From NCBI GenBank assembly GCA_039969155.1, contig JBDVOJ010000112.1:3859-67858 (forward strand): a stretch of DNA of 64,000 bases, given 5' to 3'. Position numbers and translations under genes: made by a program. Origin of the DNA: Kangiellaceae bacterium (GTDB lineage: Bacteria > Pseudomonadota > Gammaproteobacteria > Enterobacterales > Kangiellaceae). The notes beneath the pieces were generated by a model. The model ran no database searches, was not told where the DNA came from, and worked only from the letters and a program-made list of their open reading frames with translations. Shown in pieces: positions 57,532 to 59,092 of this stretch; the first letter of the stretch is position 1; the number at the start of each line of letters is the position of its first letter.

Positions 57532-59092
57532 ATGACTCCCACTAGAGCCTTTAATAAATTAGTGCTAGCCCCCTTTTTCGTGGGTTAGCGTGAGCCAGTG
57601 CCATAATATATGCGTTCAAACCATATAACGGAGGCTAGCATGAACAACGATACCATAATTTTTATTGGCATGGATACTCATAAAGTGTTCACTGAAATCG
57701 CTTATTCTGAGTATCAACGAGAATCTAGTATTGAGCATTTTGGTCGGATTAAAACGACGAAACCGGCCATTAAGAAGTTTGCTAAACAAATGCAATCTAA
57801 ATACAGCAATGCAACATTACATTTTGTTTATGAAGCGGGTCCCTGTGGTTATTGGGTCTATCGGTTGTTAACGAGTTTGGGGCATTGTTGTTTCGTCGTC
57901 GCACCTTCCCTGCTCCCTAAAAAGCCAGGTGATAAAATTAAAACCGATAAACGTGATGCGATAAAGCTAACTCGTTTACTTAAGAACTGCGATATTGAGC
58001 CAATCTATGTGCCCGAGCCTGAAGACGAAGCCATTAGAGATTTATCTCGTGCAAGAGAGCGAGCGATGAATGATTTATGTGATGCTAAATACCAACTTAA
58101 AGCTTTGCTCCTGAGAAATCATATTAACTACGATGGAAAAGCCAATTGGTCGCTTAAACACATGCGTTGGTTAACCGATATGGTATTACCTTTTCCCGCA
58201 CAGCAAATCGTATTACAAGAAATGATCCAAACTGTTTCTGAGCGTGCCGAGCGATTAAAACGATTGGATAATGAGCTACTTCATCAAGTCAAACTATGGC
58301 GATATTATCCAGTGGTCAAAGCAATTCAAGCGATGCGTGGCGTTCGGTTATTAGTCGCTGCTGGAGTCATTGCAGAACTTGGCGATCTCACTCGTTTTGA
58401 CCATCCGAGAAAATTGATGAGCTATGTCGTTTTAGTTCCGGGAGAACATTCCAGTGGAGGACGGCGCAAAGTCGGTAGCATTACAAAGTGCGGAAATGGG
58501 CGGCCCGTCGGTTGTTAACTGAAGGCGCACATAGTTATCGTTATCCTGCCAACATATCCCACGATTTACAAATAAGGCAAGAAGGATTGAGTAAAGAAAT
58601 AGTCGATATTGCTTGGAAAGCACAGCTTAGATTATGTAAACGGTACCAAAGATTAATGAAACGAGGCAAACATTACAACGTCGCTATTACTGCAATTTCG
58701 AGAGAGATGATTGCTTATATATAGGCCATTACTCGAGAAGTAGTTGTCTCACCAGTTGATCCTAAGAAACGTTTATCAAGAGTTCCATCGTGAAGCAGGT
58801 TTTGAGTTCAACCATAGGTTTAGCCACGGTAGGTGGTGCAATCTCCGAGGGCGTTAGGATGGCTAGTTATGATTTATAATTAGATCTACAAGCATAGACT
58901 GAAGACAGACACCACGACGAAATAAGCAAGGTCGGTAATCCGCTTAGCGGTGTAATCCACGAATACCATCATGAGAACCGTCGAATATTTACTGGCTTTA
59001 ATTTGTGATTGAACTCACTCTATAAATTGACGATGCTCTGAAATAACGGGAAGGGATTTTTATGTTTTTATTGACAGTGGGAGTCATACCAG
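57532..59092 (+). mobile_element. IS110/IS1111-family insertion sequence (~1.56 kb) inserted in an attC site
   Basis: The element is delimited by 12-bp inverted repeats, ATGACTCCCACT at its left end (57532-57543) and AGTGGGAGTCAT subterminal at the right (59076-59087, followed by ACCAG). It contains a DEDD-type transposase gene. Removing 57532-59092 restores GGC-GT|TATGT, an attC R' box. Confidence 0.75.
57640..58724 (+). pseudogene. IS110-family (DEDD) transposase, frameshifted
   Basis: It reads MNNDTIIFIGMDTHK...(GGAGG RBS)...ITKCGNG, then shifts frame near 58497-58503 into AARRLLTEGAHSYRYPA...WKAQLRLCKRYQRLMKRGKHYNVAITAISREMIAYI. The two track ORFs 57610..58518 and 58488..58724 are one gene with a 1-nt indel. 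Confidence 0.8.

What the first reader, a model, noticed from the sequence alone, without database searches (positions are those of the whole stretch)
58725..59092. Long 3' non-coding end of the IS with short matches to its own target: candidate bridge/seek guide RNA
About 368 nt separate the transposase stop from the right end. For IS110/IS1111 elements a structured non-coding RNA encoded in the long non-coding end (downstream of the gene in IS1111-type elements) has been described that base-pairs with target and donor DNA. Within this end, GCATAGAC (58892-58899) is identical to the 8 nt of left target flank at 57521-57528, i.e. within 3 nt of the insertion point. CGAGGGCGTTAGG (58846-58858) closely resembles the uninterrupted target read on the other strand (CGAGGCGTTATG, the L'-spacer-R' part of the attC). 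Two such matches in 368 nt look unlikely by chance, but I cannot compute significance here.
Basis: partly seen in the sequence, partly recalled or inferred. Interest (0 to 1): 0.65.

Follow-up and report, generated by a model that had tools for sequence, protein, structure and literature searches.

The report
Guide RNA gene of a decayed IS1111-type IS
The non-coding tail of this insertion sequence encodes a conserved, structured guide RNA of the already described seekRNA/bridge-RNA kind, and the two flagged segments are its target-recognition loops, but this copy of the element is a decayed one, so the finding is correct and ordinary.

Summary
The window holds one ISVisp2-like IS1111-family element at 57525-59090. 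Its transposase is 70% identical to ISVisp2 after repair.

Downstream of tnp lies a ~220-nt structured RNA (58799-59021, + strand). It is conserved in 77 relatives from marine gammaproteobacteria. Covariation is strong: 33 of 49 pairs show compensatory changes, and 97% of cells pair against 32-41% in slid controls. A covariance model built without the window hits it at 150.8 bits (E 5e-40).

The two flagged segments lie on opposite sides of one internal loop. GGCGTTA is the reverse complement of the conserved right flank T^AACGCC. (A/G)CAT-A-GAC matches the left flank plus the IS left end.

In a Burkholderiales sister clade the scaffold is kept but both loop segments differ. There they match those elements' own, different flanks. 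This is natural reprogramming.

Corrections:
- The true NCR is ~297 nt, because the "stop" at 58722 is a nonsense mutation.
- tnp also carries a frameshift after 58502.
- The IS ends are 57525 and 59090.
- Half of the GCATAGAC match lies in the IS end, not the flank.
- In the single sequence the matches are not beyond chance (p about 0.13 and 0.41).

IS1111 seekRNAs/bridge RNAs were described in 2024, and ISVisp2 was already predicted to encode one in its right end. This is a new member of a known kind.

The parts
57525..59090 (+). ISVisp2-like IS1111-family insertion sequence (1566 bp), single copy in the window.
   Evidence: The ends AGACATA+sTIR and sTIR+ACC are shared by 77 copies in different flanks. 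Assembly contigs of multicopy relatives break at these ends.
57525..57531 (+). 7-nt left terminal extension AGACATA. Its first bases (A, GAC) are matched by the 3' part of the B guide. CATAAT at 57528-57533 is the -10 of the junction promoter.
   Evidence: A 7-bp left extension is a stated IS1111 feature (PMC11187229).
57532..57543 (+). Left subterminal inverted repeat ATGACTCCCACT.
   Evidence: 100% complementary to 59076-59087.
57640..58793 (+). DEDD transposase pseudogene. It has a 1-nt deletion after 58502 (frameshift) and TGG->TAG at 58722-58724. The ancestral stop is the TGA at 58791-58793.
   Evidence: Pfam PF01548 + PF02371. The repaired protein is 70% identical to ISVisp2 Tnp and 25% to ISKpn4 Tnp. 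Lesions located by alignment with relatives.
58799..59021 (+). Full-length structured ncRNA (long seekRNA / bridge-RNA equivalent).
   Evidence: CM R1, built from 33 relatives without the window, gives 150.8 bits, E 5e-40, model positions 1-226. Covariation. Own fold z = -2.2.
58804..58825 (+). 5' arm of the long closing stem, pairing with 58995-59016.
   Evidence: Helices 1-2: 15 of 19 pairs have compensatory changes. Window coordinates; arms also found (I18).
58995..59016 (+). 3' arm of the closing stem.
58827..58920 (+). Target-binding domain (short-seekRNA equivalent, about 94 nt). It comprises the stem 58833-58839 / 58909-58915, an internal loop and a distal hairpin.
   Evidence: Helices 3, 4 and 6. 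The size is comparable to the 82-96-nt peak seekRNAs of ISEc11, ISKpn4 and ISPa11 (PMC11187229).
58850..58856 (+). It is the reverse complement of T^AACGCC, the last left-flank base plus the canonical right flank.
   Evidence: Nearly invariant in 77 copies that share the AACGCC right flank. The homologous segment in sister-clade elements changes with their right flanks: 7-8 of 9 cognate identities against 3.8 non-cognate.
58863..58883 (+). Distal hairpin separating the two guides.
   Evidence: Helix 6: 7 of 8 pairs have compensatory changes.
58892..58899 (+). B guide GCATAGAC on the 3' side of the internal loop. GCAT matches the left flank, A is the shared junction base, and GAC matches bases 2-4 of the IS left end.
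   Evidence: Guide versus left flank in 62 insertions: -1 T 62/62, -2 42/62, -3 36/62, -4 36/62; permutation p < 1e-4. Sister-clade guides follow their own left flanks.
58931..58960 (+). Second domain: a short stem plus a hairpin.
   Evidence: Helices 7-8: 6 of 9 pairs have compensatory changes.
58963..58969 (+). Candidate donor (right-end) guide ATACCAT (family consensus ATAYCAG) in the unpaired multiloop strand. The consensus equals the last 5 nt of the IS right end plus AG of the left end, i.e. the circle junction. The window has G->T at the last base.
   Evidence: Right end CATATC is always paired with ATATCAG (24/24). Right end CATACC occurs with ATACC (27) or ATATC (25), as expected if RNA U can wobble-pair with G. 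The same 7-mer relation holds in the sister clade. This assignment is inferred, not proven.
59071..59076 (+). TTGACA, the -35 of the promoter formed only when the ends are joined: TTGACA, 17 nt, CATAAT.
   Evidence: The same spacing is found in all 77 copies. A junction promoter is known for IS1111/IS110 elements (PMC11187229).
59076..59087 (+). Right subterminal inverted repeat AGTGGGAGTCAT.
59088..59090 (+). 3-nt right terminal extension ACC.
59091..59187 (-). Occupied attC-like target. On the minus strand it reads R'' GCATAAC (overlapping the stop codon of the upstream gene) ... GCCTCTTAACGAGGCGT(C)T^ATGCAT, continuing at 57518-57524. The extra base is at 59092.
   Evidence: The neighbouring attC-like site at 60761-60839 ends GGCGGCGTTATGC, the canonical empty target.

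Best explanation
The region downstream of the transposase gene of this ISVisp2-like IS1111-family element encodes a structured guide RNA (seekRNA / bridge RNA) of about 220 nt on the transposase strand.

Its 5' domain (58827-58920) is a stem closing an internal loop with a distal hairpin. The 5' strand of the loop carries GGCGTTA, which can pair with the top strand of the target T^AACGCC. That motif is the R' end of attC-type sites (GGCGTT^ATG on the cassette strand). The 3' strand of the loop carries (A/G)CAT-A-GAC, which can pair with the bottom strand of the left flank, the junction base and the first bases of the IS left end. An unpaired strand in the 3' multiloop (consensus AUAYCAG) matches the right-end/left-end joint of the excised circle.

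By analogy with the tested relatives ISEc11, ISKpn4 and IS621, the RNA is made from the tnp transcript. That transcript is driven by the TTGACA-17-CATAAT promoter, which forms only in the circle. The RNA then binds the DEDD transposase and directs orientation-specific insertion without duplication.

Shown here: the conserved structure, the position of the guides in loops, the guide-flank agreement, and natural reprogramming in relatives.

Inferred: transcription, processing, protein binding, and the strand-exchange details.

This particular copy has a broken transposase gene (a frameshift and a nonsense codon) and a 1-nt anomaly at its right junction. It is most likely an immobile relic whose RNA gene is still nearly intact.
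For: - IS identity: Pfam DEDD_Tnp_IS110 + Transposase_20; 12-bp sTIRs; 70% amino-acid identity to ISVisp2.
- 77 related copies share the ends AGACATA...ACC/ATC and the flank T^AACGCC.
- RNAalifold on 59 sequences gives 49 pairs, 33 with compensatory changes.
- Pair counts: 97.1% of cells paired against 85.6% in shuffles (0/500 reach the observed value) and 32-41% when partners are slid. Covariation score 0.405 against at most 0.071.
- Many G-U pairs fit the + strand only.
- A CM built from 33 relatives, excluding the window and its closest relative, hits 58799-59021 at 150.8 bits, E 5e-40. It is the only real hit in 64 kb.
- Both reader segments are in the two strands of one internal loop.
- Left-flank/guide agreement: permutation p < 1e-4.
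- Sister clade L093-L101: Tnp of L093 is about 45% identical (the rest were found by DNA similarity to L093). The CM detects the scaffold in L093 (E 9e-6). The guide-1 segments TATGCTA, ACGGCTA, AGATACTA, GTCGCTT and GGGTGCTT equal the reverse complement of their own right flanks AGCATA, AGCCGT, AGTATCT, AGCGAC and AGCACCC. Cognate identity is 7-8 of 9 against a non-cognate mean of 3.8. Guide-2 contiguous match is 2.75 against 0.69.
- Literature: IS1111 seekRNAs lie downstream of tnp, with the T match 5' of the B match and the two overlapping at the insertion point (PMC11187229). IS1111 bridge RNAs lie in the RE, with donor-binding nucleotides often in a multiloop, and ISVisp2 is listed as RE/IS1111 (PMC11208160).
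Against: - There is no expression, processing or protein-binding data for this RNA or for any member of the ISVisp2 clade.
- No Rfam family matches, so there is no curated model to score against.
- In this copy, guide 1 matches the actual right flank poorly (5 of 9, contiguous 2) because of the extra G at 59092.
- The candidate donor guide has a G->T change at an otherwise >=95% conserved base (column 184).
- tnp is inactivated, so the RNA cannot act here unless an intact copy elsewhere supplies the protein.
- Within the ISVisp2 clade the guides are nearly invariant, so the covariation test rests on the more distant sister clade. There one of nine copies (L100) fits poorly.
- No segment that would pair with the left-end strand of the donor was found.
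Confidence: 0.9

Rival explanations
1. The two matches are coincidences in an ordinary 3' untranslated or terminal region, and no guide RNA is encoded.
For: In the single sequence the matches are not significant (p = 0.13 and 0.41). The 8-mer is expected about 1.4 times per 64 kb. The whole 368-nt stretch folds no better than its shuffles (z = -0.77).
Against: Both segments are nearly invariant in 77 copies and sit in a structure with 33 compensatory pairs. The CM hit has E 5e-40. The guides change with the flanks in the sister clade.
Confidence: 0.02
2. The conserved non-coding end works at the DNA level, as transposase-binding or end-recognition sites or folded single-stranded DNA, and not as an RNA.
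For: IS ends do carry protein-binding sites. The sTIRs and the -35 box lie in the same end. No transcript evidence is available.
Against: The conservation pattern is one of base-paired helices with G-U pairs that would be C-A mismatches on the other strand. The conserved block lies 55-290 nt inside the end, not at the terminus. Homologous regions of tested IS1111 members give RNAs that co-purify with the transposase and work in trans (PMC11187229).
Confidence: 0.04
3. The structure is a cis-acting element of the tnp mRNA (stability, termination or translation control). The similarity of its loops to the target reflects common descent, not guiding.
For: It lies directly 3' of tnp on the same strand and has no promoter of its own.
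Against: This does not explain why the loop sequences equal the flanks of each element and change with them in elements that have different targets. It also does not explain the 7-mer that equals the circle joint.
Confidence: 0.04

Closest known systems
ISVisp2 (ISfinder; IS110 family, IS1111 group)
   Same: The transposase is 70% identical after repair. The organisation is the same: short left end, sTIRs, long right non-coding end. Durrant et al. list ISVisp2 as IS1111 group with the predicted bridge RNA in the RE.
   Different: The window copy is a distinct element at about 68% nucleotide identity to its plasmid relatives. Its tnp is broken. I found no description in the searchable literature of the ISVisp2 RNA's structure, guides or target.
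seekRNAs of ISEc11, ISKpn4, ISPst6 and ISPa11 (Siddiquee et al. 2024, PMC11187229)
   Same: The RNA lies downstream of tnp. Short forms of about 80-100 nt and longer forms are reported (154 nt for ISEc11). Two short target matches, one per strand, overlap at the insertion point, with the top-strand-pairing match 5' of the other. Natural reprogramming is seen between relatives, as for ISEc11/ISXne4. There is a 7-nt left extension and a junction promoter.
   Different: The transposase is only 25% identical to TnpKpn4. The one ISKpn4 copy examined sits near the other (R''/L'') end of an attC, whereas this clade inserts at the R' end, GGCGTT^A. Here the B guide continues into the IS left end (GAC) rather than into the right flank. 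No experiments exist for this clade.
IS621 bridge RNA (Durrant et al. 2024, PMC11208160; Hiraizumi et al. 2024, PMC11208158)
   Same: It is a structured RNA whose internal-loop strands pair with opposite strands of the target around a shared core. A second region matches the donor joint. Guide bases that match the partner DNA after exchange (handshake guides) resemble the GAC tail of the B guide.
   Different: The IS621 RNA lies in the left end, upstream of tnp, and has two simple internal loops. Here the RNA lies in the right end, the donor-matching bases are in a multiloop strand, and long sTIRs are present. Only one donor-side match was found.
IS1111-attC group (ISPst6, ISPa21, ISKpn4; Tetu & Holmes 2008, Post & Hall 2009)
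   Same: These are IS1111-type elements that insert in one orientation into integron attC sites. One relative (L001) sits in a clinical class 1 integron.
   Different: It is a different transposase lineage with a different position in attC. Those two papers could not be read here, so I cannot say whether they mention this lineage.

Membership tests
IS1111 group of the IS110 family | DEDD (RuvC-like) transposase with the C-terminal PF02371 domain | tested here: met
   PF01548 at 5.8e-12 and PF02371 at 1.2e-12. However, the gene is frameshifted and carries a nonsense codon.
IS1111 group of the IS110 family | Subterminal inverted repeats of 7-17 bp with short terminal extensions (7 nt on the left) | tested here: met
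   12-bp perfect sTIRs. Extensions AGACATA and ACC are defined by 77 copies.
IS1111 group of the IS110 family | Longer non-coding region downstream of tnp | tested here: met
   115 nt upstream (57525-57639) against about 297 nt downstream (58794-59090).
IS1111 group of the IS110 family | Sequence-specific, orientation-specific insertion without target duplication | tested here: met
   Almost all of the 77 copies lie at nnT^AACGCC in one orientation (5 differ at one flank base, 2 at more, 1 too short to read), and the joined flanks give GGCGTTA.., as in the uninterrupted neighbouring site. This copy itself has one extra base at the right junction.
IS1111 group of the IS110 family | Circular intermediate with a promoter formed at the joint | not testable with these tools
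   Joining the ends would give TTGACA-17-CATAAT in all 77 copies. Circle formation itself needs an experiment.
seekRNA / bridge RNA | Conserved RNA secondary structure in the long non-coding end, on the tnp strand | tested here: met
seekRNA / bridge RNA | Two loop segments complementary to opposite strands of the target, overlapping at the insertion point (T match 5' of B match in IS1111 types) | tested here: met
   GGCGTTA (58850-58856) and GCATA(GAC) (58892-58899) lie on the two sides of one internal loop. The order is as in PMC11187229.
seekRNA / bridge RNA | Guide segments covary with the target across elements | tested here: met
   Sister-clade reprogramming and left-flank permutation test, p < 1e-4. 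Relatedness of the sequences is a caveat.
seekRNA / bridge RNA | Donor-recognising segment | tested here: inconclusive
   ATAYCAG equals the RE/LE joint and shows a wobble-compatible asymmetry. The pattern is confounded by clade structure, and no partner guide for the left end was found.
seekRNA / bridge RNA | RNA is produced, binds the transposase and is required for circle formation and insertion | not testable with these tools
   No expression or biochemical data. Here tnp is a pseudogene.
seekRNA / bridge RNA | Match to a curated or published covariance model | not testable with these tools
   Rfam 15 gives no relevant hit at E <= 10. The Durrant et al. models are not available here, although their table lists ISVisp2 as RE-encoded.
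IS1111-attC group (ISKpn4/ISPst6/ISPa21 lineage) | Transposase closely related to TnpKpn4/TnpPst6 (these are 76-90% identical to one another) | tested here: not met
   25% identity over 292 aa.
IS1111-attC group (ISKpn4/ISPst6/ISPa21 lineage) | Same insertion position within attC | tested here: not met
   The ISKpn4 copy L088 lies in ..GGCTTGAA / GAATTGTTAGAT.., the R''/L'' side. This clade lies at the R' end, GGCGTT^A. Only one ISKpn4 copy was inspected.

The most novel reading that the evidence does not exclude
In this clade the two strands of the target loop may carry different versions of the junction bases. The T guide reads the target's A-A (UUA in GGCGUUA). The B guide reads the donor's A-G and runs on into the IS left end (CAUAGAC). 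A wobble-tolerant right-end guide sits in a multiloop. If real, this is a built-in handshake asymmetry, different from IS621 and from the ISEc11/ISKpn4 seekRNAs. It could set the direction of the reaction (insertion against excision). The odd AGAC at this copy's right junction could then be a footprint of exchange in the alternative register.
Probability: 0.25. Interest if true: 0.45.

Novelty: new member of a known kind. Interest (0 to 1): 0.3.

Why it matters
It confirms that a reader working from raw sequence can spot an IS1111-type guide RNA, and it fixes the anatomy of one for the ISVisp2 lineage.

That lineage is widespread in marine Vibrio, Pseudoalteromonas, Shewanella, Colwellia and relatives. 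It has reached a clinical class 1 integron at least once.

The element inserts at the R' end of attC sites. This splits the recombination site (GTT^A), so it may block cassette excision and reshuffling at that site.

The series of naturally reprogrammed relatives (ISVisp2 clade plus Burkholderiales clade) gives a ready-made set of scaffold/guide pairs for anyone engineering IS1111-type recombinases.

None of this changes current understanding. The class of RNA and its mechanism were published in 2024.

Tried and rejected
- Rfam scan of 57000-59600 at E <= 10 gave only chance hits. The best, STnc240, is the terminator hairpin of the neighbouring gene.
- I first assumed the Klebsiella relative L001 was ISKpn4. 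It is not: TnpKpn4 is only 25% identical, and ISKpn4 targets another part of attC. ISKpn4's published guides therefore cannot be compared directly.
- Mutual-information scan of NCR columns against end and flank positions was dominated by trivial self-overlap and clade signal. I replaced it with targeted tests.
- Attempts to show an uninterrupted arr-3 attC/3'-CS joint in PLSDB listed only two-piece places.
- A search for an empty copy of the window's own site failed. The exact-protein look-up returned only the identical locus, and a metagenome pattern scan found nothing.
- No other copy of the L001 element exists in PLSDB.
- ISSso6 copies (L090, L102) lack a recognisable right end in the fetched stretch and were not used. 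L091 (ISSfr2) and L092 (ISEc45) gave no CM hit.
- I looked for a fourth guide complementary to the IS left end (expected UUAUGUCU-like) and found none.
- The Tetu & Holmes 2008, Post & Hall 2009 and Partridge & Hall 2003 papers are not held.
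Full report
**The element**

The finding lies in the 3' part of a single insertion sequence. Its ORFs carry the two Pfam domains of IS110-family DEDD transposases, PF01548 and PF02371. It is bounded by perfect 12-bp subterminal inverted repeats at 57532-57543 and 59076-59087. There is no second copy in the window.

A DNA search of plasmid records found ten relatives at about 68% identity, most covering nearly the whole element including the non-coding end. 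One scan of one-genome-per-species contigs then returned 80 loci. These come from Vibrio, Photobacterium, Pseudoalteromonas, Shewanella, Colwellia, Rheinheimera, Neptunomonas, Marinomonas and others.

In 77 copies where both ends could be read, the element always starts AGACATA (or AGACACA) + ATGAC.. and ends ..GTCAT + ACC (or ATC). Short assembly contigs of multicopy relatives break at these points. The IS is therefore 57525-59090. It has the 7-nt left extension that the seekRNA paper gives as an IS1111 feature (PMC11187229).

Joining the ends would create TTGACA-17 nt-CATAAT in every copy. This is the junction promoter known for this family.

The closest named element is ISVisp2. After repair, the window protein is 70% identical to ISVisp2 Tnp and only 25% to ISKpn4 Tnp.

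**This copy is decayed**

Against relatives, the window has a 1-nt deletion after 58502, which shifts the frame. It also has TAG where all others have TGG at 58722-58724. The family's stop codon corresponds to the TGA at 58791-58793.

The right junction reads ACC|AGACGCC. Nearly all relatives (69 of 77; 5 others differ at one base) read ACC|AACGCC, so there is an extra G at 59092. I could not find an empty site to explain it.

**The target**

All genes from about 57081 to 63671 are on the minus strand.

The IS interrupts an attC-like site. On the minus strand this reads GCATAAC (overlapping the stop codon of the AAA-ATPase gene) ... GCCTCTTAACGAGGCGT(C)T^ATGCAT. The next intergenic site, at 60761-60839, ends GGCGGCGTTATGC uninterrupted.

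Across relatives the flanks are nnT^AACGCC, often followed by nnnnTAAGnG. On the cassette strand this is the R' end of attC sites, GGCGTT^A(T/G)G.

One relative (L001) sits between arr-3 and qacEdelta1 in a class 1 integron on a Klebsiella IncC plasmid. There the joined flanks read GGCGTTAGATGC.

**The observation**

Two points need correcting.

First, GCATAGAC at 57521-57528 is GCAT of flank plus AGAC of the IS.

Second, taken alone the matches are not significant. Dinucleotide shuffles of the NCR reach an 8-mer match to the left junction in 13% of trials. They reach a 7-mer reverse-complement match to the canonical joined flanks in 41%.

**The structure**

An alignment of 59 non-identical homologous ends gives an RNAalifold consensus of 49 pairs, 33 of them with compensatory double changes.

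Counting that structure gave the following:
- 97.1% of cells pair, against 85.6% after shuffling partners (0 of 500 shuffles reach the observed value).
- Only 32-41% pair when partners are slid by 1-3 columns.
- The covariation score is 0.405, against at most 0.071 in the slid controls.
- Frequent G-U pairs fit the + strand only.

A covariance model built from 33 relatives, leaving out the window and its nearest relative L047, finds 58799-59021 (+) end to end. It scores 150.8 bits, E 5e-40. The next hit in 64 kb has E 0.12.

In window coordinates the structure is:
- a long closing stem, 58804-58825 with 58995-59016;
- a stem, 58833-58839 with 58909-58915;
- an internal loop whose 5' strand is 58840-58862 and whose 3' strand is 58884-58908;
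- a distal hairpin, 58863-58883;
- a second small stem-hairpin, 58931-58960;
- an unpaired strand, 58961-58994.

**The guides**

Within the ISVisp2 clade both loop strands are almost invariant: CCGA(C/G)GGCGTTAGGA(T/C)GGC and (A/G)C(A/C)TAGACTGAAGACAGG.

GGCGTTA is the reverse complement of T^AACGCC.

(A/G)CAT-A matches the left flank and the junction base. In 62 distinct insertions the flank equals the guide at:
- position -1 in 62/62;
- position -2 in 42/62;
- position -3 in 36/62;
- position -4 in 36/62;
- background level further out.

The pairing of guide variants with flank variants exceeds all 10,000 permutations.

The following GAC equals bases 2-4 of the IS left end, not the canonical right flank.

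The order of the two guides, and their overlap at the insertion point, are as described for IS1111 seekRNAs: the segment that pairs with the top strand comes first.

**Natural reprogramming**

Because one clade shares one target, I looked for more distant relatives. A tblastn search and a DNA search found a Burkholderiales clade. Its first member, L093, has a transposase about 45% identical to the window's, and the others were found by DNA similarity to L093. Its ends are AG(N)CAGT + sTIR ... sTIR + ATC, and its flanks differ between members.

The CM recognises the scaffold in L093 (E 9e-6), and the ends align. In this clade the segment homologous to guide 1 matches the element's own right flank, including the last base of the left flank:

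| Element | Guide-1 segment | Own right flank |
|---|---|---|
| L093 | TATGCTA | AGCATA |
| L095 / L097 | (C)ACGGCTA | AGCCGT(G) |
| L096 | AGATACTA | AGTATCT |
| L099 | GTCGCTT | AGCGAC |
| L101 | GGGTGCTT | AGCACCC |
| L098 | CAAAAAC | GTTTTTG |

Cognate identity is 7-8 of 9 in ten of twelve elements, against a non-cognate mean of 3.8.

The two poor fits are L100 and the window itself. The window scores 5 of 9 only because of its extra G; against the canonical flank it scores 8 of 9.

Guide 2 follows the left flanks in the same way: mean contiguous match 2.75 against 0.69.

**A possible donor guide**

The unpaired 3' strand holds ATAYCAG (ATACCAT in the window). The consensus equals the last five bases of the right end plus AG of the left end, i.e. 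the circle joint.

Elements whose right end is CATATC always have ATATCAG (24/24). Those with CATACC have ATACC (27) or ATATC (25). This fits an RNA U tolerating G but an RNA C not tolerating A. The same relation holds in the sister clade.

Durrant et al. note that in many IS1111 orthologues the donor-binding bases lie in a multiloop. This assignment is inferred and is confounded by clade structure. I found no guide for the left-end strand.

**What is known**

seekRNAs of IS1111 elements (Siddiquee et al. 2024) and bridge RNAs of IS110/IS1111 elements (Durrant et al. 2024; Hiraizumi et al. 2024) describe this kind of RNA and its mechanism. ISVisp2 appears in the Durrant tables as an IS1111-group element with the RNA predicted in the right end.

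The ISKpn4/ISPst6 "IS1111-attC" lineage is a functional analogue but a different lineage. Its transposase is 25% identical, and the one copy inspected is near the other end of attC.

Rfam has no matching family.

**Verdict**

The object is a new, decayed member of a known kind. The remaining oddities are the extra G at the junction, the donor-type AG and left-end bases in the B guide, and the single donor-side match. They are minor and are recorded as such.

Noticed in passing
window 59091-59093: The right junction reads ACC|AGACGCC, where 69 of 77 related copies read ACC|AACGCC and 5 more differ at one base. One extra G therefore makes AGAC appear at both junctions of this copy. It may be a post-insertion mutation, a variant target (GGCGTCTATGC), or a footprint of exchange in another register.
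   Followed up: partly
window 58502-58503 and 58722-58724: The transposase gene is a pseudogene, with a 1-nt deletion and a TGG->TAG nonsense codon. Thirteen of the 77 copies, the window's among them, lack an intact ORF, including the closest relative L047 (Aliikangiella maris). L047 carries about 140 nt not aligned to the window, starting in its left end.
   Followed up: yes
window 60761-60839 (-) and 57081-63671: A second, uninterrupted attC-like site ends GGCGGCGTTATGC. All genes in this stretch are on the minus strand (acetyltransferase, M64 peptidase, a 185-aa protein, an AAA_15/AAA_21 ATPase, a small lipoprotein). This looks like a short cassette array. No integrase was looked for.
   Followed up: partly
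window 59108-59197 (-): A sub-threshold Rfam hit to STnc240 (32 bits against a gathering score of 55) is the terminator-like hairpin and U-run downstream of the ATPase gene. It lies inside the attC-like site.
   Followed up: no
L001 (NZ_CP095763.1 28578-30132): An ISVisp2-like element with guide 2 ATCTAGAC sits at GGCGTT^AGATGC, between arr-3 and qacEdelta1, in a class 1 integron on a Klebsiella pneumoniae IncC plasmid. It is the only such record among 72,556 plasmids.
   Followed up: partly
L029, L036, L050 (Pseudoalteromonas): These copies carry insertions of roughly 70 nt inside the second RNA domain, just 5' of the ATATCAG segment. They also have an extra hairpin-like insert after the target-domain stem.
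   Followed up: no
L093-L101 (Burkholderia, Paraburkholderia, Cupriavidus, Mycetohabitans plasmids): This sister clade keeps the RNA scaffold, has right end ATC, and shows AG at both the IS left end and the start of every right flank (a 2-nt shared core). Each variant has its own target and matching guides.
   Followed up: yes
L072-L084 (Vibrionales bacterium SWAT-3): At least twelve copies occur in one genome. Several flanks are not attC-like beyond T^AACGC(C/T). The effective target may therefore be only about 7-10 nt.
   Followed up: no
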